NCBI RefSeq assembly: GCF_030384885.1
Contig: NZ_CP128615.1
Strand: one strand, 5' to 3'
DNA: 64,000 nucleotides
From: Escherichia coli
GTDB taxonomy: Bacteria > Pseudomonadota > Gammaproteobacteria > Enterobacterales > Enterobacteriaceae
The notes below the pieces were generated by a model. That model did not search any database, was not told the origin of the DNA, and saw nothing but the letters and a program-made list of their open reading frames with translations. Below are positions 29,044 through 47,026 of this stretch, piece after piece (within the stretch, counting starts at the first letter, position 1; every line of letters begins with the position of its first letter). Made by a program: the position numbers and the translations under genes.

Positions 29044-29081
29044 GGGGAGCCCGCAGAATTCGGAAAAAATCGTACGCTAAG
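29044..29081. repeat. Tn1721 internal 38-bp inverted repeat
   Basis: GGGGAGCCCGCAGAATTCGGAAAAAATCGTACGCTAAG, overlapping tnpA stop. Confidence 0.8.
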
Positions 29082-32043: not shown

Positions 32044-32046
32044 GTG

Positions 32047-32607
32047 TCAGTCGTCCGTGCGGAGGTACTGGTAGAGGGTTTCCCGGCTGATGTTGAACTC
32101 GCGGGCAAGCTGCGCCTTGGGCTCGCCGGCCGTCGCTCGCTGCCGCAGGGTAGCAGCCTGCTCATCGGACAGGGCTTTCTTGCGGCCCCGGTACGCGCCA
32201 CGCTGCTTGGCCAAGGCGATGCCCTCACGCTGCCGCTCGCGGATCAGGGCGCGCTCGAACTCAGCGAAGGCCCCCATCACCGACAGCATCAGGTTGGCCA
32301 TCGGCGAGTCCTCGCCAGTGAACACCAGGCCCTCCTTCAGGAACTCGATGCGCACGCCGCGCTGAGTCAGCTTCTGTACCAAGCGACGCAGGTCATCGAG
32401 GTTGCGGGCCAGCCGATCCATGCTGTGCACCACCACTGTATCGCCTTCGCGGACGAAGCTCAGCAGCGCTTCGAGCTGGGGGCGCTGGGTGTCCTTGCCC
32501 GATGCCTTGTCGGTGAACACCTTGCTCACCTGGGTTTGTTCCAGCTGGCGTTCCGGGTTCTGGTCAAAGCTGCTGACCCGGACGTAGCCGATGCGGTGCC
32601 CCTGCAC
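32047..32607 (-). CDS. tnpR: serine resolvase TnpR
   Basis: 186-aa ORF MQGHRIGYVRVSSFDQNPERQ... with catalytic Ser and C-terminal HTH. Confidence 0.9.
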   Translation of the reverse strand: MQGHRIGYVRVSSFDQNPERQLEQTQVSKVFTDKASGKDTQRPQLEALLSFVREGDTVVVHSMDRLARNLDDLRRLVQKLTQRGVRIEFLKEGLVFTGEDSPMANLMLSVMGAFAEFERALIRERQREGIALAKQRGAYRGRKKALSDEQAATLRQRATAGEPKAQLAREFNISRETLYQYLRTDD

Positions 32608-32800
32608 GATGTCTCCTTGGTTGAAGGCGGCTTAAGTGCACTTTCTGTTCCGTTGTGCCTCAAAGCCCATTTCTGTCAGGCTGAAATCTATAACCTTCGC
32701 GGGCATGTGTCAAAAAATGGGAAAGCAGACTCTATTCTGACGAAGCGGCGCGCCCTGCCTGACATCAAGTTAGGGTATAGCCTAGATTGACATGCGCGAT
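32608..32800. promoter_or_regulatory. probable res site / tnpR promoter region
   Basis: AT-rich intergenic region between tnpR and mcp, by position only. Confidence 0.4.
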
Positions 32801-32915
32801 GCAACCCTTAACTTGCTTGCACCTATCGTTTCCATGCTAGCTTTATCGTAACGCTCAAGAAATTGGGCTTAATGCCGAAAACAATAAAATAAAACAGCCA
32901 ACCCTTGAGGTTCTT

Positions 32916-34493
32916 ATGCGCCAGAATTTACCAGTGACGGGTCGAAACTTAGAACTCCCAAAAGATGCCAATATTCTTTCGACTACCTCCCCTCAAAGCC
33001 ATATCACGTACGTTAATCCTGACTTCATTAAAATCAGTGGTTTCACTGAGGAAGAACTATTAGGCCAGCCTCACAACATCGTAAGACACCCAGATATGCC
33101 GCCTGCTGCATTTGAGCATATGTGGAGTACATTAAAATCTGGCCGCTCATGGATGGGGCTAGTAAAAAATCGCTGTAAAAATGGCGACCACTATTGGGTA
33201 AGTGCTTATGTAACGCCAATAGCTAAGAATGGTTCGATTGTTGAATACCAGTCTGTAAGGACCAAGCCTGAACCTGAGCAGGTTTTGGCTGCGGAAAAAT
33301 TATATGCTCAATTGAGAAGCGGGAAGGCCGCGAGGCCGAAATTGGCTGCTAGCTTTTCCGTGAAAATACTCTTGCTCATATGGGGTAGTATTATATCAAG
33401 CGCAATGGCTGCCGGCATGCTTACTGATACATCAATAAGCAGCTTATTGTTAGCCACTTTAATGTCAGGAAGCTTAAGCTCTGTTAGTGTTTTGGCTATT
33501 CTCTCTCCTCTTGGAAGACTGGTTGAAAGAGCCAGGAATATTTCCAATAACCCATTAAGTCAATCCCTCTACACTGGGCGCACCGATGAGTTTGGCCAAA
33601 TAGAGTTTGCTTTACGAATGATGCAAGCTGAAACAGGCGCCATAGTAGGTCGCATAGGTGATGCATCAAATCGGCTTAGCGAACACACCCGAGGCCTACT
33701 AAAGGATATTGAGTCAAGCAATGTACTTACAGTTGAGCAGCAGGCAGAGACAGATCAAATAGCAACGGCAGTAAACCAAATGGTGGCAAGCATTCAAGAG
33801 GTTGCGAGCAATGCACAGCATGCTGCAGATGCGGCCGGAAGAGCAGACACTGAGACGGCATCTGGCCAGCGTCTGGTAGCCCACACAAGCCAGTCAATCA
33901 CTGCCCTTGAAGGTGAAATTAGGCAAGCCACTCAGGTTATTCATGAGCTTGAAGGTCAAAGTAACGAGATATCAAAAGTTCTTGACGTTATACGAGGGAT
34001 CGCCGAGCAAACGAATTTGTTGGCACTCAACGCAGCAATTGAGGCCGCGCGTGCTGGTGAGCAGGGGCGTGGTTTTGCTGTTGTCGCCGATGAGGTTCGC
34101 AGTCTTGCTGCTCGCACACAGCAATCGACAACGGATATTCAAAGCATGATCAGCGCTCTACAAGAGCGAGCGCAATCCGCTGTTACAGTCATGGAGCAAA
34201 GTAGTCGGCAAGCGCACACGAGTGTAGCTCACGCAGAGGAAGCAGCTACAGCTCTTGATGGAATTGGCCAACGCGTTAACGAAATTACCGACATGAACGC
34301 GCAAATAGCGACTGCGGTCGAGCAGCAGGGAGCAGTAAGTGAAGACATAAACCGCAGTATTATCAATATACGCGATGCTGCTGATACCAATGTACAGACC
34401 GGGCAGAATAATTTGCAAAGTGCGAAATCTGTCGCTCAGTTAACTAGCGCTCTGAGCGAACTGGCAAAACAGTTTTGGGAAAAACGAGGATAA
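32916..34493 (+). CDS. methyl-accepting chemotaxis-like protein (Tn1721 orfI-type, PAS + MCP signalling domain)
   Basis: 525-aa ORF; PAS-like N-terminus, TM segment, MCP signalling repeats ([30 protein letters not shown]). Confidence 0.85.
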
Positions 34494-34643
34494 CGCTTTT
34501 CAGTATCTCGACAGGGATAACTTACTTTACCATCGGTTATCCCTTTTAGCCGCACAAATTTTAGCCATGGCTTTTCAGGAAGTCAGGGCTATCAGAATGG
34601 CCTTAGAAAGCCTAGTCAAAGAGCTGTCACGAGAACACCGTTA

Positions 34644-34681
34644 GCTTAGCGTACGATTTTTTCCGAATTCTGCGGTTCCCC
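34644..34681. repeat. Tn1721 terminal inverted repeat (mcp side)
   Basis: reverse complement of GGGGAACCGCAGAATTCGGAAAAAATCGTACGCTAAG. Confidence 0.8.
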
Positions 34682-34715
34682 CTTAATTTCAGTATCTGTT
34701 ATTACAGTTGGGTAT

Positions 34716-34790
34716 CGGTGATGCTGCCAACTTACTGATTTAGTGTATGATGGTGTTTTTGAGGTGCTCCAGTGGCTTCTGTTTCTATGG
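34716..34790 (+). mobile_element. IS1 terminal fragment (IR plus first ~75 bp)
   Basis: GGTGATGCTGCCAACTTACTGATTTAGTGTATGATGG...; joined directly to a Tn3-family IR. Confidence 0.8.
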
Positions 34791-34828
34791 GGTCAGTTTG
34801 GATATCGAAAATTATTGTACGTTAAGGT
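34791..34828. repeat. Tn3-family 38-bp terminal inverted repeat (unidentified transposon)
   Basis: GGGGTCAGTTTGGATATCGAAAATTATTGTACGTTAAG followed on minus strand by a tnpA 3' fragment. Confidence 0.7.
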
Positions 34829-35147
34829 CGTTTTTTGACCTTTCTACTTTAGCTGGCCTCAGCCGACGAAACTTACCGGAGGCCGGTATTCTGTTGTTTT
34901 TCCAGATGTAATCGCCTGTCAGATTGATATGCTCCCAGCCTAACGGCGACAAATGTGACAGCAGTTGCTCGTTGATCTTCACCCCTTTACGCTTCAGGGC
35001 ATCGACCGCTCTTTCCATATACACTGTATTCCACAGCGAGATAGTTGCTGTCAGCAGCGTCAGTCCACTGGCGCGGTAGCTCTGATTTTCCGGTTTACGA
35101 TCCCTGATTTCACCCAGACGGTGCAGGAATACCGCGCGCGCTAGAGA
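34812..35147 (-). pseudogene. Tn3-family transposase TnpA, C-terminal ~110 codons only
   Basis: ...[17 protein letters not shown]...[17 protein letters not shown]...; homology to TnpA ends near 35147. Confidence 0.75.
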
Positions 35148-35666
35148 GAGCTCCCATCGCTGCGCGACGGGCCCCAACCGGAGAACCAAGTTAGTTACAG
35201 CATTCAGATGAAAATTCATCATAAAACCGGCGCCGGTTTGCCAGCCAGGAGCCCCTCCCCACCACTGAAAAGCGCCGCCGCCCCCGGCCGAAGGCCGGGA
35301 GTAGTGTCGCTTTTAATGATGGGTGTTGTAACTACTCTTCGTCATCTCTGTGAGTAGTGTCGCGGTAAGTTCTGGGATACACGCTCGTAAGCGGCCCTAA
35401 CGGCCCGCTAACGCGGAGATACGCCCCGACTGCGGCTGTCGCCTTGCCGGGACCACTCCGACCGCGTACAGAGGCATCTGAGCCGTTTTTAGCGGGTATA
35501 GCTTTGCAGGGAAGGGGGTGGGTGAGGCAGAACCTGTCAAAACAGCAGCCGGCTGCGCCGGGCGACGGCGCCATTTACCCGCAGTACTCCATTCAACTTC
35601 AGCTGGCGCCTCCATGCCGCTGACGCGGCATTATCTATACTTTAAGTCTGGCCACTGGAGGTAACC

Positions 35667-35751
35667 ATGTGCGGACGTTTTTCTCAGTCTATGACGCGGG
35701 AAGAGTATCTTTCTCTCCTCGCCAATGAAGCCGATCGAAATATTGCCTACG
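35667..35751 (+). pseudogene. SRAP/YedK-like (DUF159) gene, first 28 codons only, truncated by IS903
   Basis: MCGRFSQSMTREEYLSLLANEADRNIAY with RBS GGAGGT; runs into the IS903 IR at 35752. Confidence 0.5.
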
Positions 35752-35912
35752 GGCTTTGTTGAATAAATCAGATTTCGGGTAAGTCTCCCCCGTAGCGGGT
35801 TGTGTTTTCAGGCAATACGCACGCTTTCAGGCATACCTGCTTTCGTCATTTTGTTCAGCGCTCGTACCAGGGCCATAGCGGGGTCGTTTGCGGGAGGGGG
35901 CGGAATCCTACG

Positions 35913-38798
35913 CTAAGGCTTTGGCCAGCGATATTCTCCGGTGAGATTGATGTGTTCCCATCCGAGCGGCGAAACATGGGCCAAGAGATCGGGCGATAGC
36001 AGCTTTCCATCGCGTTTCTGGTTTGCAACGACCTCGCCGAGCTTCATGGTGTTCCAGAAGATGATGATGGCGGCGAGCAGATTCATGCCGGCGATGCGGT
36101 AATGCTGGCCTTCGGCGGAACGGTCGCGGATTTCACCGCGGCGGTGGAAGCTGATTGCCCGCTTCAGCGCATGATGAGCTTCGCCTTTGTTGAGCCCGAT
36201 CTGGGCACGCCGTTGGAGTTCGGCATCCAGAATCCAGTCGATCATGAACAGGGTGCGCTCGACGCGACCGACTTCCCGCAGGGCTGTCGCGAGCTCGTTC
36301 TGCCGCGGATAGGAGGCGAGTTTCCGCAGAATCTGGCTTGGCGCGACGGTCCCGGCAGCAATGGTGGCGGCGATGCGCAGGATGTCGGGCCAATTGCGCT
36401 CGATCATGGCTTGGTTGACCTTTCCGCCGATCAACGCTCGCAGGTGCGCCGGGGCGGCCGACGGATTGAACGCGTAGAGCCGTTTGGATGGCAGGTCGCG
36501 GATGCGCGGAGCGAACCGGTAGCCGAGAATGGCACATGCGGCAAAGACGTGATCGGTGAAGCCGCCCGTGTCGGTGAACTGCTCGCGGATATGGCGTCCA
36601 GCATCGTTCATCAGCAGGCCATCGAGGATGTAAGGCGCTTCGCTTGCCGTTGCAGGAATCACCTGGGTTGCGAACGGCGCATATTGGTCGGAGACGTGGC
36701 TATAGGCTTTCAGGCCCGGGGTATTGCCATATTTCGCGTTGACCAGGTTCATGGCCTCACCTTGCTCTGTAGCGACGAAGAACTGTCCGTCGCTCGAAGC
36801 CGACGTGCCCATGCCCCAGAACCGGGCCATGGGTAACGCTGCCTGTGCCTCGACCACCATGGCCAGCGCCCGGTCATAGGCTTCGCCCTCGACATGCCAC
36901 CGTCCAATGCGGATCAATTCCCAGAAGGTGTGGGTGTTTGTCGCATCCGCCATTTTGCGCAAGCCGAGGTTGATCCCTTCCGCCAAGATAACGTTCATTA
37001 GCCCGATCCGGTCAGCGCAGGGTGCTCCTGTGCGCAGATGGGTGAACGCTTCGGTGAAGCCGGTCGCCGCATCCACCTCCAGCAGGAGATCGGTGATGCG
37101 CGTGGGCGGGATCTGCTTGTAGAGATCGAGCACCAGATCTTCGGCGCCTGTCGGCGCGGCGGCTTCGAGTTTCTCGATATGCAGAACGCCGTTTTCAATC
37201 GACCCGCCCGGGATCGTGCCTGCGCGAGCGGCACGGCCAAGCTCGCGCAACCGCATGTCGAGGCGAGCTTGCCGGTCTGCCAGCCATTCCTCCGGCCGCA
37301 ATGGCACAGCGAGACGACCGCCTTCCGCGATGGATTGTGCCGGAACGAGTGCGTGTTTCAGATCGCCATAGCGCCGGGACCTAGTAAGCCAGACATCTCC
37401 GGAGCGGAACGCATCGCGCAGATGGAACAGCACCGCGATCTCCCATAGGCGAGCGTCGCCAGCCCTCTGGGCCCGAAGGTGGCGATGCCATTTCGAGCTG
37501 GGCCGCAAGAAGCTGGTCATCGCGGCATCGTTCAAACCGGTACGAAGGGCCGTCACCGCTTCCAGAAGCGGCAGTGCAACGGGCGCAGCTCGCAGATCGA
37601 GCAGGCGCAACATGCGTGGAGCGTATCGGCGGAAGCGGTGATAACCGTCGAGCACATGATTGAGCGGATCGTCGGCCATGGTGGCGGTCAGCCTGGTTGC
37701 CATTGCAACAAGGGTTTTTAAGCCGTCCCACCCTGACCCACTCGCGATGACATCGCCCAGCGGCTGGCCATCATCCTGTGCATCGACCAGGGCGCCCCCG
37801 ATCTCGGCGAAGGATTTCAGGGTGTCACGCACCACCCCCGCTTCGTCTGCGACCTTTGCATGGCAAATACGCTCCGAAGCACGGTAGAGACGGCCGACGA
37901 TCCGGTCGTGGGTTTCGACCACTGCGTCGGCCAACATCGCCTGCCATTCCGAGACGCAAACAGCCAAGATCGCAAGCCGCCTGTCCTCCGGGAGATCGCG
38001 CATGCCGTCGGCATAATACCGTTCACCCTGCCTGCGCAGACGAGTCACCCGATGGGCAGGAACGCCGGCAAGCAGATCCTCGGGGAGATCGATGCGTTGC
38101 AGATATTCGAGCCGGTCGAGCAGCCGGTTGGCCGACGAAGAGTTCGAGCCAGGCTCGAACTGGCGCAGCCACACAAAACGGGTCACCCGATCATCAGCCG
38201 TCTCCTCGAGCAATGCCAGCAACTGTTCTCGGATCGACATAGGCAGCCGACTGGCGATCCTCGTCTCGATGCGTCGCTCGGCATCGACGAGAGCCGCGGC
38301 ACAAAGCCGCTCGATCGTGGATGTCGCGGGAAGGACAGTGCGGGTGCGTCGGCACTCGGCTACGAAGCGACGGGCGATATCCTCGTTCGACACCGCCATC
38401 TCGGCTTCTCGGAACAACCATTCCTTCAGCTCGCTCGCACCACGTCCGGAGAAGGTGCGGAAGCCGTAGAGCCCCCGTAACTCGGCAAGATGCTCGTGCC
38501 GTGTTTCCTCGCGGGCAGCATAGTCTACGAGATCGTCGGCACCCAGGCCAAGCTGCGCTCCGATAAATTCGATGACCTCTGCAGGGATCAGTTCGCCTGG
38601 AGCCAGCACCCGGCCGGGATAGCGCAGGACACACAATTGCAGGGCGAAGCCGAACCTGTTGTGAGCGCGCCGACGCAGCCTGATATGCCCAAGGTCTTCA
38701 TCACTCAGCGTATAGTGCTTGAGCAAATCCGTCTGTGAAGTCGGCAAGCGCAACAGCGCGTCTTTCTGCCGATCGGTTAGAGTGACGCGACGCGGCAT
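35913..38798 (-). CDS. tnpA: Tn3-family transposase TnpA (Tn5393)
   Basis: 961-aa ORF; C-terminal ...[17 protein letters not shown]. Confidence 0.9.
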   Translation of the reverse strand: MPRRVTLTDRQKDALLRLPTSQTDLLKHYTLSDEDLGHIRLRRRAHNRFGFALQLCVLRYPGRVLAPGELIPAEVIEFIGAQLGLGADDLVDYAAREETRHEHLAELRGLYGFRTFSGRGASELKEWLFREAEMAVSNEDIARRFVAECRRTRTVLPATSTIERLCAAALVDAERRIETRIASRLPMSIREQLLALLEETADDRVTRFVWLRQFEPGSNSSSANRLLDRLEYLQRIDLPEDLLAGVPAHRVTRLRRQGERYYADGMRDLPEDRRLAILAVCVSEWQAMLADAVVETHDRIVGRLYRASERICHAKVADEAGVVRDTLKSFAEIGGALVDAQDDGQPLGDVIASGSGWDGLKTLVAMATRLTATMADDPLNHVLDGYHRFRRYAPRMLRLLDLRAAPVALPLLEAVTALRTGLNDAAMTSFLRPSSKWHRHLRAQRAGDARLWEIAVLFHLRDAFRSGDVWLTRSRRYGDLKHALVPAQSIAEGGRLAVPLRPEEWLADRQARLDMRLRELGRAARAGTIPGGSIENGVLHIEKLEAAAPTGAEDLVLDLYKQIPPTRITDLLLEVDAATGFTEAFTHLRTGAPCADRIGLMNVILAEGINLGLRKMADATNTHTFWELIRIGRWHVEGEAYDRALAMVVEAQAALPMARFWGMGTSASSDGQFFVATEQGEAMNLVNAKYGNTPGLKAYSHVSDQYAPFATQVIPATASEAPYILDGLLMNDAGRHIREQFTDTGGFTDHVFAACAILGYRFAPRIRDLPSKRLYAFNPSAAPAHLRALIGGKVNQAMIERNWPDILRIAATIAAGTVAPSQILRKLASYPRQNELATALREVGRVERTLFMIDWILDAELQRRAQIGLNKGEAHHALKRAISFHRRGEIRDRSAEGQHYRIAGMNLLAAIIIFWNTMKLGEVVANQKRDGKLLSPDLLAHVSPLGWEHINLTGEYRWPKP

Positions 38799-38923
38799 AC
38801 ATGTTCCTTTTTCAAAATCTGATAGCGTTCAAGACGCTTTGTTTATGAAGCTGGTTGAGATACATTTCCAGAGGTCAATGCAATCGTGGCCGAAGCGCCG
38901 CCTCAAACCAACGTTTGTGATAC

Positions 38924-39538
38924 ATGCTGATCGGATATGCCCGCGTCTCCAAAGCCGATGGCTCGCAGTCTCTCGACCTGCAGCACGACGCCTTGCGCGC
39001 CGCAGGTGTCGAACGGGACAATATCTATGATGATCTTGCTTCCGGCGGTCGTGATGATCGCCCTGGCTTGACTGCCTGCCTCAAGTCATTGCGTGACGGC
39101 GATGTGCTGGTGGTCTGGAAGCTCGATCGCCTCGGACGATCGCTTGCCCATCTGGTCAACACGGTGAAGGAGCTGTCAGACCGCAAGATCGGCCTGCGGG
39201 TTCTGACTGGAAAGGGCGCTCAGATCGACACCACGACTGCGTCCGGTCGCATGGTGTTCGGAATCTTCGCCACCTTGGCCGAGTTCGAGCGGGATCTGAT
39301 CCGAGAGCGCACCATGGCGGGTCTCGCCTCCGCGAGAGCGCGCGGTCGCAAGGGCGGACGAAAATTCGCGCTCACCAAAGCTCAGGTGCGTCTCGCGCAA
39401 GCCGCCATGGCCCAGCGCGATACTTCAGTTTCCGATCTCTGCAAGGAACTCGGCATCGAGCGCGTCACTCTCTACCGATATGTCGGTCCCAAAGGCGAGC
39501 TCAGAGACCATGGAAAGCATGTTCTCGGACTTACGTAG
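38924..39538 (+). CDS. tnpR: serine resolvase TnpR (Tn5393)
   Basis: 204-aa ORF MLIGYARVSKADGSQSLDLQ... Confidence 0.9.
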   Translation: MLIGYARVSKADGSQSLDLQHDALRAAGVERDNIYDDLASGGRDDRPGLTACLKSLRDGDVLVVWKLDRLGRSLAHLVNTVKELSDRKIGLRVLTGKGAQIDTTTASGRMVFGIFATLAEFERDLIRERTMAGLASARARGRKGGRKFALTKAQVRLAQAAMAQRDTSVSDLCKELGIERVTLYRYVGPKGELRDHGKHVLGLT

Positions 39539-39581
39539 TGGACTTGCCTCGGTTTCGTTCCGGTCTTTTTGAGAGCATTAT

Positions 39582-39878
39582 TTGTTATCAAGGAGACCAT
39601 ATATGTCATTAAAGCATAGTGATGAATTTAAGCGTGATGCAGTTCGCATAGCACTCACTAGTGGCTTAACACGCCGTCAAGTTGCGTCAGATTTAAGTAT
39701 TGGGCTTTCCACGCTTGGGAAATGGATCGCATCAATTTCCGATGAAACTAAAATTCCTACCCAAGACACTGATCTTCTGCGTGAGAATGAACGTTTACGC
39801 AAAGAGAACCGTATCCTTCGGGAGGAGAGGGAGATATTAAAAAAGGCAGCAATATTTTTCGCAGTACAAAAGCTGTGA
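39582..39878 (+). CDS. IS1133 transposase OrfA
   Basis: 98-aa ORF with HTH. Confidence 0.8.
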   Translation: MLSRRPYMSLKHSDEFKRDAVRIALTSGLTRRQVASDLSIGLSTLGKWIASISDETKIPTQDTDLLRENERLRKENRILREEREILKKAAIFFAVQKL

Positions 39879-40732
39879 GATTTCAGTTTATTACGGATTA
39901 CCGTGGCTCTCTCTCACGTTCACGCATATGTCGTTTGATGGGCGTAACAGATCGTGGTTTACGTGCATGGAAACGCCGTCCTCCATCACTGCGCCAGCGT
40001 CGTGATCTTATACTTCTAGCGCATATACGTGAGCAGCATCGGTTGTGTTTGGGGAGCTATGGTAGGCCGCGTATGACAGAAGAGTTGAAAGCGCTGGGCC
40101 TGCAGGTTGGGCAGCGTCGGGTTGGACGTTTGATGCGCCAGAATAACATTACAGTTGTTCGAACGCGTAAATTCAAACGGACAACGGATAGTCATCATAC
40201 CTTCAACATTGCACCGAACCTATTAAAACAAGACTTTAGCGCAAGCGCACCCAACCAGAAATGGGCAGGCGATATCACTTATGTTTGGACCAGAGAAGGA
40301 TGGGTCTATCTTGCTGTTATCCTTGACCTGTATTCCCGTCGCGTGATTGGCTGGGCAACAGGTGATCGATTAAAGCAGGATCTTGCATTAAGGGCACTGA
40401 ATATGGCGTTGGCTTTACGCAAACCACCACCGGGTTGTATTCAACACACAGACCGTGGGAGCCAATATTGCGCTCATGAATATCAAAAGCTACTGCTCAA
40501 ACATCAATTGCTGCCGTCCATGAGCGGGAAAGGCAATTGTTTTGATAACTCCGCAGTAGAAAGCTTCTTTAAATCATTAAAGGCTGAGTTGATTTGGCGC
40601 AGACACTGGCAAACAAGGCGAGATATTGAGATTGCAATCTTCGAATATATAAATGGCTTTTATAATCCACGCCGAAGACATTCAACACTCGGCTGGAAAT
40701 CGCCGGTGGCATTTGAGAAAAAAGCCGCTTAA
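39875..40732 (+). CDS. IS1133 transposase OrfB (DDE/rve)
   Basis: 285-aa ORF; 4-bp overlap with orfA. Confidence 0.8.
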   Translation: MRFQFITDYRGSLSRSRICRLMGVTDRGLRAWKRRPPSLRQRRDLILLAHIREQHRLCLGSYGRPRMTEELKALGLQVGQRRVGRLMRQNNITVVRTRKFKRTTDSHHTFNIAPNLLKQDFSASAPNQKWAGDITYVWTREGWVYLAVILDLYSRRVIGWATGDRLKQDLALRALNMALALRKPPPGCIQHTDRGSQYCAHEYQKLLLKHQLLPSMSGKGNCFDNSAVESFFKSLKAELIWRRHWQTRRDIEIAIFEYINGFYNPRRRHSTLGWKSPVAFEKKAA

Positions 40733-40838
40733 AATGAGAGATAGACCGGAACACAACCGGTGCAAGTCCATAGCAACTCGTTTCTTTTCGCAGGTTGAGC
40801 CACCTCCGCGCTTCATCAGAAAACTGAAGGAACCTCCA

Positions 40839-41642
40839 TTGAATCGAACTAATATTTTTTTTGGTGAATCGCATTCTGACTGGTTGCCTGTCAGAGGCGG
40901 AGAATCTGGTGATTTTGTTTTTCGACGTGGTGACGGGCATGCCTTCGCGAAAATCGCACCTGCTTCCCGCCGCGGTGAGCTCGCTGGAGAGCGTGACCGC
41001 CTCATTTGGCTCAAAGGTCGAGGTGTGGCTTGCCCCGAGGTGATCAACTGGCAGGAGGAACAGGAGGGTGCATGCTTGGTGATAACGGCAATTCCGGGAG
41101 TACCGGCGGCTGATCTGTCTGGAGCGGATTTGCTCAAAGCGTGGCCGTCAATGGGGCAGCAACTTGGCGCTGTTCACAGCCTATCGGTTGATCAATGTCC
41201 GTTTGAGCGCAGGCTGTCGCGAATGTTCGGACGCGCCGTTGATGTGGTGTCCCGCAATGCCGTCAATCCCGACTTCTTACCGGACGAGGACAAGAGTACG
41301 CCGCAGCTCGATCTTTTGGCTCGTGTCGAACGAGAGCTACCGGTGCGGCTCGACCAAGAGCGCACCGATATGGTTGTTTGCCATGGTGATCCCTGCATGC
41401 CGAACTTCATGGTGGACCCTAAAACTCTTCAATGCACGGGTCTGATCGACCTTGGGCGGCTCGGAACAGCAGATCGCTATGCCGATTTGGCACTCATGAT
41501 TGCTAACGCCGAAGAGAACTGGGCAGCGCCAGATGAAGCAGAGCGCGCCTTCGCTGTCCTATTCAATGTATTGGGGATCGAAGCCCCCGACCGCGAACGC
41601 CTTGCCTTCTATCTGCGATTGGACCCTCTGACTTGGGGTTGA
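40839..41642 (+). CDS. strA: aminoglycoside 3''-phosphotransferase APH(3'')-Ib (streptomycin resistance)
   Basis: 267 aa from TTG start (NRTNIFFGESHSDWLPVRGGESGDFVFRRGDGHAFAKIAP...); the ORF-track start at 40653 is an upstream extension. Confidence 0.9.
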   Translation: MNRTNIFFGESHSDWLPVRGGESGDFVFRRGDGHAFAKIAPASRRGELAGERDRLIWLKGRGVACPEVINWQEEQEGACLVITAIPGVPAADLSGADLLKAWPSMGQQLGAVHSLSVDQCPFERRLSRMFGRAVDVVSRNAVNPDFLPDEDKSTPQLDLLARVERELPVRLDQERTDMVVCHGDPCMPNFMVDPKTLQCTGLIDLGRLGTADRYADLALMIANAEENWAAPDEAERAFAVLFNVLGIEAPDRERLAFYLRLDPLTWG

Positions 41643-42478
41643 TGTTCATGCCGCCTGTTTTTCCTGCTCATTGGCACGTTTCGCAACCTGTTCTCATTGC
41701 GGACACCTTTTCCAGCCTCGTTTGGAAAGTTTCATTGCCAGACGGGACTCCTGCAATCGTCAAGGGATTGAAACCTATAGAAGACATTGCTGATGAACTG
41801 CGCGGGGCCGACTATCTGGTATGGCGCAATGGGAGGGGAGCAGTCCGGTTGCTCGGTCGTGAGAACAATCTGATGTTGCTCGAATATGCCGGGGAGCGAA
41901 TGCTCTCTCACATCGTTGCCGAGCACGGCGACTACCAGGCGACCGAAATTGCAGCGGAACTAATGGCGAAGCTGTATGCCGCATCTGAGGAACCCCTGCC
42001 TTCTGCCCTTCTCCCGATCCGGGATCGCTTTGCAGCTTTGTTTCAGCGGGCGCGCGATGATCAAAACGCAGGTTGTCAAACTGACTACGTCCACGCGGCG
42101 ATTATAGCCGATCAAATGATGAGCAATGCCTCGGAACTGCGTGGGCTACATGGCGATCTGCATCATGAAAACATCATGTTCTCCAGTCGCGGCTGGCTGG
42201 TGATAGATCCCGTCGGTCTGGTCGGTGAAGTGGGCTTTGGCGCCGCCAATATGTTCTACGATCCGGCTGACAGAGACGACCTTTGTCTCGATCCTAGACG
42301 CATTGCACAGATGGCGGACGCATTCTCTCGTGCGCTGGACGTCGATCCGCGTCGCCTGCTCGACCAGGCGTACGCTTATGGGTGCCTTTCCGCAGCTTGG
42401 AACGCGGATGGAGAAGAGGAGCAACGCGATCTAGCTATCGCGGCCGCGATCAAGCAGGTGCGACAGACGTCATACTAG
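41642..42478 (+). CDS. strB: aminoglycoside 6-phosphotransferase APH(6)-Id (streptomycin resistance)
   Basis: 278 aa MFMPPVFPAHWHVSQPVLIADTF...; overlaps strA stop. Confidence 0.9.
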   Translation: MFMPPVFPAHWHVSQPVLIADTFSSLVWKVSLPDGTPAIVKGLKPIEDIADELRGADYLVWRNGRGAVRLLGRENNLMLLEYAGERMLSHIVAEHGDYQATEIAAELMAKLYAASEEPLPSALLPIRDRFAALFQRARDDQNAGCQTDYVHAAIIADQMMSNASELRGLHGDLHHENIMFSSRGWLVIDPVGLVGEVGFGAANMFYDPADRDDLCLDPRRIAQMADAFSRALDVDPRRLLDQAYAYGCLSAAWNADGEEEQRDLAIAAAIKQVRQTSY

Positions 42479-42584
42479 ATATCAAGCGACTTCTCCTATC
42501 CCCTGGGAACACATCAATCTTACCGGAGAATATCGTTGGCCAAAGCCTTAGCGTAGGATTTCGCCCTCTCCCGCAAACGACCCC

Positions 42585-43486
42585 ATAGCCTCCGCAACCT
42601 GACCATCGTAGTCACGCAGCGTCAGTGAACCCCCGAACAGCTGTTTTACCCGGTACATCGCCGTTTCCGCTATCGAGCGACGGTTGTAATCTGTTGTCCA
42701 TTTCCACCGCGCATTACTCCCGGTCATTCGCTGATTAGCCACTGCACGGTTACGGTCTGCATATTCACCGGGCCAGTAACCCGCACCTTTTCGGGGAGGG
42801 ATAAGCGCGCTGATTTTCTTACGCCGCAGTTCATCGTGACAGAGCCGGGTGTCGTAAGCGCCGTCTGCCGATGCTGCCCTGATTTTTCTGTGAGTCTGCC
42901 GGATAAGACCCGGGAAGGCTTCTGAGTCCGTCACATTGTTCAGCGACAGGTCTGCACAGATGATTTCATGTGTGTTGCTGTCAACTGCCAGATGCAACTT
43001 TCGCCATATACGACGGCGTTCCTGGCCATGCTTTTTGACTTTCCACTCGCCTTCACCAAAGACCTTCAGCCCGGTGGAATCAATCACCAGATGCGCGATT
43101 TCACCCCGGGTGAACGTTTTGAAACTGACGTTAACCGACTTTGCCCGCCTGCTGACACAGCTGTAATCCGGGCAGCGTAGCGGAACGTTCATCAGAGAAA
43201 AAATGGAATCAATAAAGCCCTGCGCAGCGCGCAGGGTCAGCCTGAATACGCGTTTAATGACCAGCACAGTCGTGATGGCAAGGTCAGAATAGCGCTGAGG
43301 TCTGCCTCGTGAAGAAGGTGTTGCTGACTCATACCAGGCCTGAATAGCTTCATCATCCAGCCAGAAAGTTATGGAGCCACGGTTGATGAGGGCTTTATTG
43401 TAGGTGGGCCAGTTGGTTATTTTGAACTTTTGCTTTGCCACGGAACGGTCTGCGTTGTCGGGAAGATGCGTGATCTGATCCTTCAA
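42585..43486 (-). pseudogene. IS903-like transposase, C-terminus replaced by read-through into Tn5393 IR
   Basis: ORF identical to the other copies up to ...VAEAM, then diverges (GSFAGEGEILR) at the Tn5393 junction. Confidence 0.8.
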
Positions 43487-43857
43487 CTCAGCAAAAGTTC
43501 GATTTATTCAACAAAGCCCATTCAGTCCTCAATTTGTGCATTTTTTAAACGAAAAAAGGGTGTCTAATACGGTGAAATCATAGTATTACCAAAGTAATAA
43601 ATAAAAAGTTATTTAAATCAGTAATTTAGATTTGATTTGTAATACCTGGGTAATACCGCAGCATGGCTAAATTTTGTTTTTTTTCTTTTAAATCAGTGCG
43701 ATAGCGTGATTTATCACGCTGCGTTAGGTGTATAGCAGGTTAAGGGATAAAAAATCATCTTTTTTTGGTAGGGCGATCTCCGTAGGTTAAGGGGCATTTG
43801 GCTAAAAAGCGTCCTATTCTTTGATGGTCATGCTTGCATGACCATCTGAGCAACCAA

Positions 43858-44006
43858 AAACTACAGATAAACTACAGATAAACTACAAAAAACGTTTTGC
43901 CTTAGTGTTGTAAGACTACAAATAGACTACAATAAAACTACAAATAAACTACAAAAAACGTGACAGACTACAAATAGACTACAATAAAACTACAGATAAA
44001 CTACAA
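43858..44006. repeat. array of ~11-bp ACTACA(A/G)ATA direct repeats (iteron- or centromere-like)
   Basis: at least 12 copies of (A/G)ACTACA(A/G)AT(A) in 150 bp, preceded by a perfect palindrome GATGGTCATG-cttg-CATGACCATC at 43821-43846. Confidence 0.6.
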
Positions 44007-44066
44007 AACTCGATTGACCCCTTCTTACGAGTGTTGTAGAGTCATTTTCATACAACGGAGGGGGTT

Positions 44067-44246
44067 ATGAATAAACCAGCAGATCTGAAACCCCGCAACT
44101 TATCGGCTGCTGTCAGATTGCGCCTAAATGAAATCGAGAACTGGCTGGACAGAGGGCTAACGCGGCATGAAATTGCTGAAATCCTCGACAGCGAATACAG
44201 CTTTTCGGTAACAGCCAAAGGGCTTGAGATGGATGGCACTGTATAG
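44067..44246 (+). CDS. small hypothetical protein (59 aa), possible DNA-binding regulator
   Basis: strong RBS GGAGGGGG 6 bp upstream; MNKPADLKPRNLSAAVRLRLNEIENWLDRGLTRHEIAEILD...; below the ORF-track length cutoff. Confidence 0.45.
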   Translation: MNKPADLKPRNLSAAVRLRLNEIENWLDRGLTRHEIAEILDSEYSFSVTAKGLEMDGTV

Positions 44247-44465
44247 AACGCGGCAAAACCGAAAAAATGTATTGCACAATACGCATGATAAGAGTAGCGC
44301 GAAGGGTGCAGCGGAAAGTGTATTGCACAATACACAACCGTCTGAGCCTGAAGTGCAGGAAAGTAAAAAAGCAGAGAGTCCCGGCATTATTGATAAAGAA
44401 TTCTTCAAGAAAATCGGTGAGAATTTCGACCCTAAGAAGTTCAACAAAAAATTCTGAGGTGATTT

Positions 44466-44540
44466 ATGAAAGTAGCGGTAATTAATTACAGTGGCAGTGT
44501 TCGTAAAACCTTAATTTCATCTTACCTGTTAGCCCCGCGC
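44466..44540 (+). pseudogene. 5' fragment of a gene (MKVAVINYSGSVRKTLISSYLLAPR), truncated by IS903 copy 3
   Basis: RBS GAGGTGA then ATG; the N-terminus resembles the start of a ParA-like NTPase but the Walker A is not canonical. Confidence 0.35.
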
Positions 44541-45597
44541 GGCTTTGTTGAATAAATCAGATTTCGGGTAAGTCTCCCCCGTAGCGGGTTGTGTTTTCAG
44601 GCAATACGCACGCTTTCAGGCATACCTGCTTTCGTCATTTTGTTCAGCGCTCGTACCAGGGCCATAGCCTCTGCAACCTGACCATCGTAGTCACGCAGTG
44701 TCAGTGAACCTCCGAACAGCTGTTTTACCCGGTACATCGCCGTTTCCGCTATCGAGCGACGGTTGTAATCTGTTGTCCATTTCCACCGCGCATTACTCCC
44801 GGTCAGCCGCTGATTCGCAACAGCACGGTTACGGTCTGCATATTCACCGGGCCAGTAACCCGCGCCTTTTCGGGGCGGGATAAGCGCGCTGATTTTCTTA
44901 CGCCGCAGTTCATCGTGACAGAGTTGGGTGTCGTAAGCGCCGTCTGCCGATGCTGCCCTGATTTTTCTGTGAGTCTGCCGGATAAGACCCGGGAAGGCTT
45001 CTGAGTCCGTCACATTGTTCAGCGACAGGTTTGCACAGATGATTTCATGTGTGTTGCTGTCAACTGCCAGATGCAACTTTCGCCATATACGACGGCGTTC
45101 CTGGCCATGCTTTTTGACTTTCCATTCGCCTTCACCAAAGACCTTCAGCCCGGTGGAATCAATCACCAGATGCGCGATTTCACCCCGGGTGAACGTTTTG
45201 AAACTGACATTAACCGACTTTGCGCGCTTGCTGACACTGGTGTAATCCGGGCAGCGCAACGGAACATTCATCAGTGTAAAAATGGAATCAATAAAACCCT
45301 GTGCAGCCCGCAGGGTCAACCTGAACACGCGTTTAATGACCAGAACGGTGGTGATGGCGAGATCAGAATAGCGCTGAGGTCTTCCCCGTGATGAAGGCGT
45401 TGCCGACTCATACCAGGCCTGAATAGCTTCATCATCCAGCCAGAAAGTTATGGAGCCACGGTTGATGAGGGCTTTATTGTAGGTGGGCCAGTTGGTTATT
45501 TTGAACTTTTGCTTTGCCACGGAATGGTCTGCGTTGTCGGGAAGATGCGTGATCTGATCCTTCAACTCAGCAAAAGTTCGATTTATTCAACAAAGCC
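44541..45597 (-). mobile_element. IS903-like copy 3, 1057 bp, intact
   Basis: 18-bp IRs at both ends; same orientation as copy 2. Confidence 0.9.
44597..45565 (-). CDS. IS903-like DDE transposase
   Basis: 322-aa ORF nearly identical to copy 1. Confidence 0.9.
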   Translation of the reverse strand: MKDQITHLPDNADHSVAKQKFKITNWPTYNKALINRGSITFWLDDEAIQAWYESATPSSRGRPQRYSDLAITTVLVIKRVFRLTLRAAQGFIDSIFTLMNVPLRCPDYTSVSKRAKSVNVSFKTFTRGEIAHLVIDSTGLKVFGEGEWKVKKHGQERRRIWRKLHLAVDSNTHEIICANLSLNNVTDSEAFPGLIRQTHRKIRAASADGAYDTQLCHDELRRKKISALIPPRKGAGYWPGEYADRNRAVANQRLTGSNARWKWTTDYNRRSIAETAMYRVKQLFGGSLTLRDYDGQVAEAMALVRALNKMTKAGMPESVRIA

Positions 45598-46099
45598 GTC
45601 TGTGTTGTAAAATGGCGCCGAAAGCCCGGCGTAGCCGGTTGCCGGGCTATAAATTCTGCCACCCTACCCCCTGCCCTGATTAGCCTTAACTCGCGAACAG
45701 CAATGAAGAAGTCAAAGTAATCCCTTTTAACCCCGGTGAGCGGGCTTTACGGCGTTTACGACGTAAAGGGCGTGATTTCCGGGGCCTAAGCGGCGGCAGC
45801 TTGCTGCTGACGCTTAGGGGGATGTTCATCAACTATTTCAGCGACACCAGGGAACTTAACACGGTAGCTGCAAAGCCCTAATCCCGCTCACCGCCACGCA
45901 GCTGCCGTACGTCCCCCACGGGGGTGCGCAGTGCTGCGCGCGGGAACGGCGGCCCGTCTGCGGGACGCGGCGCCGTACTGCGCGTTAGCGGCCGCACGCG
46001 GCCGGTTACGGGGGACACTCCGCCATACGACCAGCGACCCGCTGAGCTGCACAATCCACAGATAACACAAGCTACATACATGTCGATATGGGAATCGGC

Positions 46100-46660
46100 C
46101 CACCTTGCCGGGCGCCGGTGCCGTGTGGAAATCCGCCCACCTTGCCGCGCGCCGGTGCCGTGTGGGAATCCGCCCACCTTGCCGCGCGCCGGTGCCGTGT
46201 GGGAATCCGCCCACCTTGCCGGGCGCCGGTGCTGTGTGGAAATCCGCCCACCTTACCGGGCGCCGGTGCTGTGTGGAAATCCGCCCATCTTGCCGGGCGC
46301 CGGTGCCGTGTGGGAATCCGCCCACCTTACCGGGCGCCGGTGCCGTGTGGGAATCCGCCCACCTTACCGGGCGCCGGTGCCGTGTGGGAATCCGCCCACC
46401 TTACCGGGCGCCGGTGCTGTGTGGAAATCCGCCCACCTTGCCGCGCGCCGGTGCCGTGTGGGAATCCGCCCACCTTGCCGCGCGCCGGTGCCGTGTGGGA
46501 ATCCGCCCACCTTGCCGGGCGCCGGTGCTGTGTGGAAATCCGCCCACCTTACCGGGCGCCGGTGCTGTGTGGAAATCCGCCCATCTTGCCGGGCGCCGGT
46601 GCCGTGTGGGAATCCGCCCACCTTACCGGGCGCCGGTGCTGTGTGGAAATCCGCCCATCT
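46100..46660. repeat. tandem array of about 15 copies of a 37-bp repeat (putative Rep_3 iterons)
   Basis: unit CTTGCCG(G/C)GCGCCGGTGC(C/T)GTGTGG(G/A)AATCCGCCCAC; lies downstream of the truncated repA fragment. Confidence 0.7.
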
Positions 46661-46708
46661 TCATGACAAAAATTTGTCAAATGACAGGCTCATGTGTGCT
46701 GATTTATG

Positions 46709-47011
46709 TCAGACGGGATTTTGCTTATCAATTATTGAGAACAGAAATTTTCCTGAATCATCAATACTATACTTAGCAAGTAAAGGTGTTTTCTCATTTA
46801 TCTGCTTGAGTGCAGGATCAAGGAAAGATCGTTTCAACTCTGCCAAGTTCTTCTGCTGGGATTCCGGTAAGACGAAACGGTCATTTAACCAAGCATGAGT
46901 AGTAACCCATAAGCCTGAAGATTTGAATTGAGCAAGACTTTCATAAAGGCGGATCGTCCGGGGATTTCGAAGACTGCCACAATCGCGGAGCGAGTAGGTG
47001 GTGAACTGGTT
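46709..47011 (-). pseudogene. Rep_3-family replication initiator, C-terminal ~100 codons only (truncated by IS1)
   Basis: translation ...NQFTTYSLRDCGSLRNPRTIRLYESLAQFKSSGLWVTTHAWL... aligns with the C-terminus of the intact RepA at 54593-55459. Confidence 0.8.
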
Positions 47012-47026
47012 GGTAATGACTCCAAC

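What the first reader, a model, noticed from the sequence alone, without database searches (positions are those of the whole stretch)
43519..44540. Plasmid-module remnant trapped between two IS903 copies
The 1-kb segment has a perfect palindrome (GATGGTCATG-cttg-CATGACCATC), at least 12 copies of an 11-bp ACTACA(A/G)ATA repeat, a 59-aa ORF with a strong RBS (absent from the ORF track), two copies of TGTATTGCACAATAC 50 bp apart, and the first 25 codons of a gene (MKVAVINYSGSVRKT...) cut by IS903. The layout resembles a centromere-plus-operator partition or replication-control cassette, but I could not assign it to a known family.
Basis: seen in the sequence. Interest (0 to 1): 0.45.

Follow-up and report, generated by a model that had tools for sequence, protein, structure and literature searches.

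The report
Orphan IncN transfer origin with stbA
The 1-kb segment is a well-known leftover of an IncN conjugative plasmid: its complete origin of transfer, the repeat array bound by the StbA segregation protein, and a broken stbA gene, stranded between two IS903 copies on an IncR-type resistance plasmid. It is ordinary, except that it probably lets the host plasmid be transferred by a helper plasmid.

Summary
Window 43519-44540 is the IncN (R46/pKM101 family) boundary between the transfer genes and the leading region. It holds:
- the start codon of traK
- the whole 545-bp traK-stbA intergenic region, which is the origin of transfer (oriT), with the experimentally defined pKM101 nic sequence GCGTTAGGTGT|ATAGC at 43721-43736
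- eleven 11-bp-phased ACTACA repeats, the counterpart of the R388 stbS centromere/operator
- the stbA promoter and stbA
- the first 25 codons of stbB, cut by IS903B

The "59-aa ORF" is the N-terminal piece of the 128-aa stbA. A 4-bp duplication (GATG) broke the gene, and none of 1145 matching PLSDB plasmids carries it.

The two TGTATTGCACAATAC copies lie inside stbA, in a 51-bp in-frame repeat.

The same IS903-bounded remnant, base for base, occurs in about 550-600 sequenced plasmids, mostly IncR, and has been described in print. The window has no relaxase, coupling protein or TraK, so this is an orphan oriT that only an IncN-type helper could use.

Novelty: already known. Interest: low.

Two side observations may merit a specialist's look. 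The StbA N-domain and its repeat array exist as two co-varying alleles. A 16-bp palindrome is shared between stbA and the mpr promoter region.

The parts
42583..43518 (-). Left IS903-like copy. It lacks about 122 bp at its far end, where the terminal repeat of a Tn5393-like strA-strB transposon abuts it. It carries a transposase ORF at 42548-43486.
   Evidence: Alignment to the right copy; ORF list; 18-nt terminal repeat 43501-43518 (I1). The Tn5393 end was identified from my own knowledge of its terminal repeat, together with the aph(3'')-Ib and aph(6)-Id hits.
43519..43521 (-). Start codon (CAT = ATG on the minus strand) of traK, the oriT accessory protein. This is all that remains of the gene.
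   Evidence: In intact IncN loci the annotated traK CDS overlaps the match by exactly 3 bases (L005 5587-6003, match starting at 6001). tblastn finds no TraK in the window.
43522..44066 (+). Complete traK-stbA intergenic region, which is the IncN-type origin of transfer (oriT) plus the stbA control region.
   Evidence: Collinear with the traK-stbA intergenic region of R46 (512 bp) and of IncN plasmid NZ_CP149583 (556 bp).
43583..43656 (.). AT-rich region with inverted and direct GTAATAC(C) motifs (arms 43583-43599 and 43640-43656). Candidate TraK operator and divergent traK promoter region; this role is an inference.
   Evidence: I2. The motif TATTACCAAAGTAATA is conserved in R46.
43703..43720 (+). 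Nic-proximal inverted repeat AGCGTGAT-TT-ATCACGCT, the relaxase recognition hairpin.
   Evidence: Folds as a 7-bp hairpin in ssDNA. It has the same position and sequence as in R46/pKM101 apart from 1 base in the arm. The pKM101 pre-nic 35-mer contains a hairpin.
43721..43736 (+). Nic region GCGTTAGGTGT|ATAGC. The predicted cleavage is between T43731 and A43732 on the + strand, so DNA to the right (stbA side) would enter the recipient first.
   Evidence: The 11-mer co-crystallised with pKM101 TraI is described base by base as T1 C2 G3 T4 T5 A6 G7 G8 T9 G10 T11, the bases directly 5' of nic. That matches 43722-43731. The sequence from 20 nt before nic to more than 40 nt after it is identical to R46.
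43737..43793 (+). Two copies of AGGTTAAGGG, 47 bp apart, just 3' of nic. Candidate accessory-protein sites; this role is an inference.
   Evidence: D5; conserved in R46 and NZ_CP149583.
43823..43846 (.). Perfect palindrome GATGGTCATGC-TT-GCATGACCATC. The binding partner is unknown.
   Evidence: R46 has GTATTCATGC-TT-GCATGAATAC at the same place, so the palindrome is kept through symmetric changes in both arms.
43860..44010 (+). Eleven 11-bp-phased direct repeats with core ACTACA, in blocks of 3+4+4. This is the stbS-like StbA binding array, acting as centromere-like site and operator.
   Evidence: The repeat sequence co-varies with the StbA N-domain type in 8 loci. The analogue is the R388 stbDRs: 9 bp plus a 2-bp spacer, in two sets of five, bound by StbA.
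44014..44042 (+). stbA promoter TTGACC-17-TAGAGT. Its -35 box starts 3 bp after the last repeat. The ribosome-binding site GGAGGGGG is at 44057-44064.
   Evidence: the only promoter-like site in the segment.
44067..44457 (+). stbA pseudogene. The 128-aa gene is broken by a 4-bp tandem duplication (GATG GATG, 44228-44235). This leaves the 59-aa ORF at 44067-44246 and an out-of-frame remainder at 44224-44457.
   Evidence: Alignment to IncR plasmids carrying intact stbA (WP_001039464), where the duplication is the only difference in 1022 bp. NCBIfam StbA_2: 204 bits for the intact allele and 64.8 bits for the fragment, against a cutoff of 100. None of 1145 PLSDB records carries the duplication.
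44268..44334 (+). Two copies of the palindrome TGTATTG-CA-CAATAC(A/G) at 44268-44283 and 44319-44334, inside a 51-bp in-frame repeat of stbA that encodes ..VLHNT..
   Evidence: Exact extragenic copies exist in IncN backbones upstream of the SprT-like gene and after the ORF downstream of stbC.
44466..44540 (+). First 25 codons of stbB (ParA/MinD-like ATPase), cut by IS903B. The Walker A glycine is changed to arginine (GSVRKT, against GSVGKT in intact genes).
   Evidence: tblastn with R46 StbB residues 1-25 gives 96% identity; DNA alignment; NCBIfam StbB for the intact homologue.
44541..45597 (-). Complete IS903B-type element: 1057 bp, 18-bp terminal inverted repeats, 322-aa IS5-family transposase ORF at 44597-45565. 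Its two flanks show no 9-bp target duplication.
   Evidence: A PLSDB record annotates the homologous copy as 'IS5-like element IS903B family transposase'.
45868..47017 (-). Context: a second IncN-derived remnant on the other side of IS903B. It holds a CUP-like repeat (45868-46070), 15.5 copies of the 37-bp IncN iteron (46089-46661) and the last 102 codons of IncN repA (47017-46712).

Best explanation
The segment is a fragment of an IncN (R46/pKM101-family, MOBF11) conjugative plasmid. It spans the boundary between the transfer genes and the leading region: traK start codon | oriT | stbS-like repeat array | PstbA | stbA | 5' end of stbB. IS903 events cut it on both sides, and it sits on an IncR-type multiresistance plasmid.

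How the intact module works (shown for pKM101 and R388, inferred here):
- TraK and host factors prepare oriT.
- The TraI relaxase binds the hairpin and cleaves GGTGT|ATAGC on the window's + strand.
- TraI pilots that strand 5'->3' into the recipient, so the stb side enters first.
- StbA binds the 11-bp-phased repeats on one face of the helix. This forms a segregation complex, represses the abutting stbA promoter and damps conjugation.
- StbB counteracts StbA.

In this window only the cis-acting parts are intact: the nic core, the hairpin, the accessory repeats, the repeat array and the promoter. Every trans-acting part is missing or dead. traK is deleted, stbA is frameshifted at codon 55, stbB is truncated, and there is no relaxase, coupling protein or type IV secretion system.

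It is therefore an orphan oriT. Its only plausible present-day activity is to make the host plasmid mobilisable by a co-resident IncN-type helper. I put the identity at about 0.97 and actual use as a mobilisation origin at about 0.55. The confidence given below is for the identity and anatomy.
For: Identity:
- 1875 PLSDB plasmids match the segment. 1129 match across at least 80% of it, and the gene is annotated stbA.
- Intact IncN plasmids show the order mobF - T4CP gene - traK | intergenic region | stbA-stbB-stbC.
- Intact StbA scores 204 bits against NCBIfam StbA_2 (cutoff 100). StbB scores 280 bits (cutoff 200).

oriT:
- The 11 bases 5' of nic used in the pKM101 TraI co-crystal (xCGTTAGGTGT) are at 43721-43731.
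- The region around nic is identical to R46, from 20 nt before it to more than 40 nt after it.
- The hairpin folds.
- IncR plasmids that carry this remnant and have no typed relaxase are still typed 'mobilizable' by MOB-suite in PLSDB.

StbA and the repeat array:
- An IncN StbA profile has the R388 StbA DNA-binding domain (7PC1) as its best PDB hit, E = 9.7e-4.
- In 8 loci the repeat core co-varies strictly with the StbA N-domain type. ACTAC(A/T) goes with MNKPADLKPRNLSAAV..., and TACA(T/A)CA goes with MKPKSIRAALQLML... TraK is 99% identical between the types and the StbA C-terminus is conserved.
- The R388 stbDRs have the same 11-bp period, and StbA binds and acts through them.
- The -35 box lies 3 bp after the last repeat.

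Orphan status: tblastn with R46 TraI, TraJ, TraK, StbC, VirB4 and VirB11 finds nothing in the window.

A remnant shared with other plasmids:
- The segment is identical to IncR plasmids p12-6919.2 and pKPN-041 apart from the 4-bp duplication.
- The right junction is in about 595 PLSDB records and the left junction in about 558.
Against: - No experiment on this remnant was found. Nicking or mobilisation from this copy has not been shown.
- The accessory protein TraK and the relaxase must come from a helper. The same plasmid carries 15.5 IncN iterons, which by established iteron biology could make it incompatible with such a helper and limit co-residence.
- stbA decay here, other frameshifted alleles in the databases and the Walker A change in the stbB stub suggest the protein-coding parts are not under selection.
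- The near-identity among hundreds of plasmids may reflect recent spread of one IncR lineage rather than selection on the segment.
Confidence: 0.9

Rival explanations
1. Inert debris. The segment is a functionless scar of IS903-mediated deletion in an ancestral IncN-IncR cointegrate. It persists only because it lies between mobile elements on a successful plasmid lineage, and its oriT is never used.
For: - stbA is frameshifted here, and other frameshifted stbA alleles exist.
- The stbB stub carries a Walker A G->R change.
- No helper functions are present in the window.
- A second IncN scar (iterons plus a repA fragment) lies next to it.
- The IS903B copy has no target-site duplication, which is consistent with recombination or deletion.
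Against: All cis-acting oriT elements are intact, and the nic core is identical to an experimentally nicked sequence. oriT-only plasmids are transferred by helpers in Klebsiella: 528 of 811 mobilizable plasmids lack a relaxase, and examples have been validated experimentally (PMC10691111). This rival concerns use, not identity.
Confidence: 0.4
2. One reading: a working partition or replication-control cassette that serves the host plasmid. The repeats act as centromere or iterons, the 59-aa protein as adaptor, and the TGTATTGCACAATAC pair as operators.
For: - In R388, StbA plus stbS stabilise a plasmid without StbB. In the many IncR plasmids whose remnant has an intact stbA, a stabilising role is therefore conceivable.
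- The array abuts the promoter.
Against: - In this window stbA is broken at codon 55. The break removes the invariant LYRxRQ motif and most of helix 4 of the DNA-binding domain.
- The host already has the IncR parAB genes.
- The 11-bp repeats are not iterons. No rep gene adjoins them, and the IncN iterons are the 37-bp repeats at 46089-46661.
- The 15-mers are within the stbA coding sequence.
Confidence: 0.07
3. Interference determinant. The orphan array, together with the neighbouring IncN iterons and, in other plasmids, the intact stbA, titrates or supplies IncN regulators. This destabilises competing IncN plasmids or blocks their transfer.
For: - Extra StbA in trans abolishes transfer of R388 lacking stbABC, and it acts through the repeats.
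- The plasmid carries 15.5 IncN iterons, against 6.5 in R46.
- About 785 of the 1145 plasmids with this stbA type are non-conjugative carriers.
Against: This is purely inferential. No incompatibility or exclusion data were found. stbA is inactive here, so only titration by cis sites could operate. IncN+IncR cointegrates do exist.
Confidence: 0.1

Closest known systems
oriT-stbABC region of IncN plasmids R46 / pKM101 / pCU1 (MOBF11 relaxase TraI, accessory protein TraK)
   Same: - Same position between traK and stbA.
- The nic core and post-nic sequence are identical, and the hairpin is nearly identical.
- Same AGGTTAAGG repeats, and a palindrome at the same place.
- 11-bp-phased direct repeats lie upstream of stbA. 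R46 has 13. From memory, Paterson & Iyer 1992 reported 13 direct 11-bp repeats in pCU1 oriT; that paper is not held, so this is unchecked.
- The StbA C-terminal half and the StbB N-terminus are conserved.
   Different: - The repeat core is ACTACA instead of TACA(T/A)CA.
- The StbA N-terminal DNA-binding domain is of a different type. By my count from the alignment it is about one third identical to R46, and the whole proteins are 50% identical.
- The outer palindrome arms differ.
- The closest intact relatives are IncN plasmids such as NZ_CP149583 and p48293_IncN (91% and 88% identity).
- Here the module is truncated at both ends and stbA is frameshifted.
StbA / stbS (stbDR) system of IncW plasmid R388
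   Same: - It is encoded just downstream of oriT, next to a ParA-like stbB.
- It is preceded by blocks of direct repeats with an 11-bp period that overlap its own promoter.
- The stb genes lie on the 3' side of nic, in the leading region.
   Different: - R388 has two sets of five TTGCATCAT repeats. Here there are three blocks (3+4+4) of ACTACA.
- Sequence similarity is marginal.
- No repeat pairs were found in other promoters of the IncN backbone, whereas R388 StbA also controls other leading-region promoters.
- Binding was not tested here.
The 'Delta-IS903B - stbA - IS903B - Delta-rep - IS1X3' structure of IncR plasmids (for example pC275-2, pKPN-041, p12-6919.2)
   Same: Same 1018-bp IncN insert, same two IS903 junctions, and the same IS903B and downstream sequence.
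   Different: - This copy has the private 4-bp duplication in stbA.
- It keeps a longer left IS903 (about 935 bp, against about 240 bp in L001 and L002), ended by a Tn5393-like transposon.
ParR/parC (type II) and TubR/tubC (type III) centromeres
   Same: Arrays of short direct repeats with about one helical turn of spacing, placed upstream of and overlapping the promoter of the operon that encodes the binding protein. This comparison is made by the R388 StbA authors.
   Different: No actin-like or tubulin-like motor. The neighbouring ATPase is ParA/MinD-like and, in R388, is not needed for stability.

Membership tests
IncN-type (MOBF11) origin of transfer | Lies in the intergenic region between the relaxosome accessory gene traK and the leading-region operon stbABC | tested here: met
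   Collinear alignment with R46 and NZ_CP149583. The traK start codon is at 43519-21 and stbA starts at 44067.
IncN-type (MOBF11) origin of transfer | Nic sequence recognised by TraI of pKM101/pCU1, preceded by an inverted repeat | tested here: met
   GCGTTAGGTGT|ATAGC at 43721-36 matches bases 2-11 of the crystallised 11-mer. It is identical to R46. The hairpin at 43703-20 folds.
IncN-type (MOBF11) origin of transfer | Is nicked by TraI and supports transfer in the presence of IncN transfer functions | not testable with these tools
   Needs a nicking or mating assay. The only indirect support is the MOB-suite 'mobilizable' typing of relaxase-less IncR carriers.
Self-contained mobilisation module (oriT plus cognate relaxase in cis) | Relaxase and accessory genes adjacent to oriT | tested here: not met
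   tblastn with TraI, TraJ and TraK finds nothing in the 64-kb window. This is an oriT-only remnant.
StbA (NCBIfam NF041290 StbA_2; homologue of R388 StbA) | Full-length protein scoring above the family cutoff | tested here: not met
   The window's 59-aa product scores 64.8 bits, below the cutoff of 100, and covers profile positions 1-50 of 123. The intact allele in sister plasmids scores 204 bits. The gene here is a pseudogene.
StbA (NCBIfam NF041290 StbA_2; homologue of R388 StbA) | N-terminal helix-turn-helix DNA-binding domain like PDB 7PC1 | tested here: met
   [not shown]
StbA (NCBIfam NF041290 StbA_2; homologue of R388 StbA) | Cognate array of direct repeats with an 11-bp period upstream of the gene, overlapping its promoter | tested here: met
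   11 repeats at 43860-44010 and -35 box at 44014. The repeat type co-varies with the N-domain type in 8 loci.
StbA (NCBIfam NF041290 StbA_2; homologue of R388 StbA) | Specific binding of the protein to the repeats | not testable with these tools
   An EMSA is needed. Only co-variation and the R388 precedent support it.
StbB (ParA/MinD-like ATPase, NCBIfam NF041292) | Full-length ATPase with a deviant Walker A motif | tested here: not met
   Only residues 1-25 remain, and the Walker A reads GSVRKT instead of GSVGKT.
IS903 / IS903B (IS5 family) | An element of about 1057 bp with 18-bp terminal inverted repeats and an IS5-family transposase | tested here: met
   The right copy is 44541-45597. 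Repeats GGCTTTGTTGAATAAATC; transposase scores 351 bits against NF033579; PLSDB annotates it as IS903B. The left copy is incomplete.
   No rep gene adjoins the 11-bp repeats. The IncN iterons are 37-bp repeats next to the repA remnant at 46089-47017.

The most novel reading that the evidence does not exclude
Two features of the IncN stb locus may not have been described.

(1) An exchangeable specificity cassette. The StbA N-terminal domain, its 11-bp repeat array and the adjacent palindrome behave as one unit with at least two alleles: the ACTACA type and the TACATCA type. Recombinant proteins exist (P0107). The unit sits between a near-invariant nic core and TraK on one side and a conserved StbA C-terminus and StbB on the other. 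It could therefore set segregation and transfer-control specificity, and incompatibility, independently of the relaxase.

(2) A dual-use palindrome. The 16-bp palindrome TGTATTG-CA-CAATACA lies in the variable-copy 51-bp coding repeat of stbA. It could be the operator of an unidentified regulator, because exact copies also lie 17 bp upstream of the SprT-like (mpr) start codon and directly after the ORF downstream of stbC in IncN backbones. In that case the orphan remnant would still carry two binding sites for it.
Probability: 0.2. Interest if true: 0.4.

Novelty: already known. Interest (0 to 1): 0.12.

Why it matters
In practical terms, the segment explains why relaxase-less IncR resistance plasmids are typed as mobilisable. 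They carry a complete IncN origin of transfer, so an IncN helper in the same cell could move the whole plasmid (here with tet(A), strA-strB and a BREX system). For annotation, the case shows that a 'novel small ORF with a strong RBS' can be the stump of a frameshifted known gene, and that apparent operators can be coding repeats. Nothing here changes current understanding. The allele-swap and palindrome observations are minor leads for people who work on StbA.

Tried and rejected
- The local Pfam-A scan of StbA, StbB, TraK and the 59-aa ORF gave no hits. The database's precomputed label PF28167 is apparently newer than the local copy.
- PHROGs gave nothing. Rfam gave nothing in 43400-44700 at E <= 1.
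- phmmer of the window-type StbA alone against PDB gave only a spurious bS20 match. Only the R46 type (E = 0.26) and the family profile reached 7PC1.
- The R388 record BR000038 is not in the collections.
- The Paterson & Iyer and Paterson et al. papers on pCU1/pKM101 oriT are not held. Statements about them rest on memory and are marked as such.
- I considered whether the 16-bp palindrome is the ArdK/CUP site. I rejected this because no copy lies in the ardK, ardB or repA promoter regions of R46.
- I looked for a regulator for the palindrome among StbC, the 114-aa ORF and ArdR. Pfam gave nothing, and a literature search for the sequence found nothing.
- I rejected reading the 11-bp repeats as replication iterons.
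- I looked for direct experimental evidence that an IncN helper mobilises an IncR plasmid through this oriT. None was found in the held literature.
Full report
**Observation.**
I read 42300-45800 and listed ORFs.
- The palindrome is GATGGTCATGC-TT-GCATGACCATC at 43823-43846. As ssDNA it folds far better than shuffles (z = -4.5, 0 of 200).
- The 11-bp repeats number eleven with an exact ACTACA core, not twelve. They fall in three blocks (43860-43892, 43915-43958, 43967-44010) in strict 11-bp register on the + strand. Eleven of the window's fifteen + strand ACTACA hexamers are here.
- The 59-aa ORF (44067-44246) follows GGAGGGGG.
- The two TGTATTGCACAATAC copies start 51 bp apart.
- The MKVAVINYSGSVRKT... 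ORF has exactly 25 codons of its own before the IS903 terminal repeat at 44541.
- The right IS903 is complete (1057 bp). The left copy lacks about 122 bp at its far end. The two-copy alignment had 93% mean column identity including the non-IS lead-in, and I estimate about 95% over the shared IS part. Both copies have the same orientation.

**Identity.**
A megablast of the 1022 bp against 72,556 plasmids matched 1875 records, and the gene is annotated stbA, 'plasmid stabilization protein'.

Intact loci in conjugative IncN plasmids show the parent arrangement: mobF relaxase, T4CP gene and traK on one strand, an intergenic region of 512-588 bp, then stbA-stbB-stbC on the other strand. The loci examined were R46, NZ_CP149583 and p48293_IncN.

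The segment's left end is 3 bases into traK, so only its start codon survives. Its right end is codon 25 of stbB. NCBIfam confirms StbA_2 (204 bits for the intact allele) and StbB.

**oriT.**
The left part of the intergenic region aligns almost perfectly with R46 around AGCGTGAT-TT-ATCACGCT GCGTTAGGTGT ATAGCAGGTTAAGGG.

The structural study of pKM101 TraI describes the 11 bases directly 5' of nic as T1 C2 G3 T4 T5 A6 G7 G8 T9 G10 T11. TraI cuts a 57-mer made of 35 pre-nic bases (with a hairpin) and 22 post-nic bases. Bases 2-11 equal window 43722-43731, so the predicted cleavage is between 43731 and 43732 on the + strand. The 22 post-nic bases are identical to R46.

The transferred strand leaves 5'->3'. 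The stb side therefore enters first, as stated for all stb-carrying plasmids.

tblastn with R46 TraI, TraJ, TraK, StbC, VirB4 and VirB11 finds nothing in the window. This is an orphan oriT.

**The repeats and StbA.**
In R388, StbA binds two sets of five 9-bp repeats spaced by 2 bp, an 11-bp period, located at its own promoter. Through them it mediates stability, autorepression and inhibition of conjugation, and StbB counteracts it.

The evidence here is as follows.
- The array ends 3 bp before the -35 box of the only promoter-like site, TTGACC-17-TAGAGT at 44014-44042.
- An IncN StbA profile has the R388 StbA DNA-binding domain as its best PDB hit, E = 9.7e-4.
- Co-variation holds across eight loci. 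StbA proteins starting MNKPADLKPRNLSAAV... always sit behind ACTAC(A/T) arrays of variable copy number. Those starting MKPKSIRAALQLML... (R46, pPM15-KPC) sit behind TACA(T/A)CA arrays. TraK is 99% identical between the types, and the StbA C-terminus, the stbB start and the nic core are conserved.
- The palindrome changes with the type too, by symmetric substitutions in both arms.

Binding itself is inferred, not shown.

**The 59-aa ORF.**
Alignment with two IncR plasmids shows the window is identical to them over the whole segment and both junctions. The single exception is a 4-bp tandem duplication (GATG, 44228-44235). It shifts stbA out of frame at codon 55. This removes the invariant LYRxRQ motif and most of helix 4.

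None of 1145 plasmids carrying this part of stbA has the duplication; the best identity is 95.1%, which corresponds to the 4-bp gap. Other frameshifted alleles occur in the protein database. The stbB stub of the remnant lineage also has a Walker A G->R change.

**The 15-mers.**
These lie inside stbA, in a 51-bp in-frame repeat encoding ..(S/N)VLHNT.. whose copy number ranges from 1 to 4 among alleles. As intergenic operators they are refuted.

They are nevertheless perfect 7-2-7 palindromes. All 17 VLHNT instances in 8 loci use the same codons apart from one ACG. Exact copies also occur outside stbA in IncN backbones:
- 17 bp upstream of the start of the SprT-like gene, called mpr in PMC6353027;
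- in reverse orientation, abutting the stop codon of the ORF downstream of stbC.

The palindrome is absent from the CUP/ArdK-controlled promoters. No candidate binder or publication was found. I leave this unexplained.

**How common, and context.**
About 595 PLSDB records carry the right junction and about 558 the left junction. [quoted passage not shown]

The window's right flank is the IncR backbone: umuDC, parBA and repB.

Immediately beyond IS903B lies a second IncN scar. It holds a CUP-like repeat, 15.5 copies of the 37-bp IncN iteron and the last 102 codons of repA, inverted relative to R46. The IS903B copy has no target duplication. Together these point to IS903-mediated rearrangement of an IncN-derived segment in an ancestor of this IncR lineage; that origin is an inference.

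To the left lie a Tn5393-like strA-strB transposon, a Tn1721-like tet(A) region, a third IS903 copy and a BREX type 1 system.

**Function now.**
What is shown:
- the cis elements of oriT are intact;
- the nic core equals an experimentally cleaved sequence;
- all trans factors are absent.

What is inferred:
- an IncN-type helper could mobilise the plasmid;
- by analogy with R388 delta-stbA and delta-stbAB, the loss of StbA would if anything relieve inhibition and remove the need for StbB.

What argues against regular use:
- the IncN iterons next door may be incompatible with a helper;
- no experimental evidence was found.

oriT-only plasmids are, however, transferred by helpers in Klebsiella.

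**Verdict.**
This is a known module in a known, widespread configuration. The only private feature is a frameshift. Interest is low.

Noticed in passing
window 45868-47017: A second IncN remnant lies on the far side of IS903B: a CUP-like repeat (45868-46070, similar to three other CUP copies in R46), 15.5 tandem copies of the 37-bp IncN iteron (46089-46661; R46 has 6.5) and the last 102 codons of IncN repA (47017-46712, 98% aa identity). It is inverted relative to stbA when compared with R46. Orphan iterons could confer incompatibility with IncN plasmids.
   Followed up: partly
window 44268-44334; L003 (R46) 30004-30019 and 22547-22562; L006 42781-42796; L012 1565-1580: The 16-bp palindrome TGTATTG-CA-CAATACA inside the stbA coding repeat also occurs exactly upstream of the SprT-like (mpr) gene. 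A reverse-orientation copy lies right after the ORF downstream of stbC in IncN backbones (exact in L006, 1 mismatch in R46). It is not in the CUP/ArdK promoters. The binding factor is unknown.
   Followed up: partly
L003, L005, L007, L008, L009, L010 and window 43823-44230: IncN plasmids carry two alleles of a unit made of a palindrome, an 11-bp repeat array and the StbA N-terminal domain (ACTACA type and TACATCA type). The oriT nic core, TraK, the StbA C-terminus and StbB are conserved around it. Repeat copy number varies between plasmids (11, 12 or more), and a recombinant StbA exists (P0107).
   Followed up: partly
window 6326-22366 (minus strand): A BREX type 1 anti-phage system: brxL, pglZ, pglX, an unassigned 587-aa ORF, brxC and smaller upstream ORFs, on what appears to be a plasmid.
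   Followed up: no
window 23935-24903: A third IS903-like transposase ORF (322 aa, IS5 family). The window therefore holds at least three IS903 copies, which could recombine with one another.
   Followed up: no
window 26790-42584: A resistance region: tet(A)/tetR with a Tn3-family transposase and an MCP-like ORF (Tn1721-like), then a Tn5393-like unit (tnpA, tnpR, an IS3-family ORF, aph(3'')-Ib, aph(6)-Id). The terminal repeat of the Tn5393-like unit ends at about 42584, inside the left IS903 copy.
   Followed up: partly
window 45598-45867: About 270 bp between IS903B and the CUP-like repeat has no match in R46 or NZ_CP149583, but the IncR plasmids L001 and L002 share it. Its origin was not determined.
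   Followed up: no
window 44502-44504 (codon 13 of the stbB stub): The Walker A glycine codon GGT is CGT (Arg) in this remnant and in the IncR remnants L001 and L002, whereas intact stbB genes have GGT. The substitution is shared by the IncR remnant copies I examined.
   Followed up: yes
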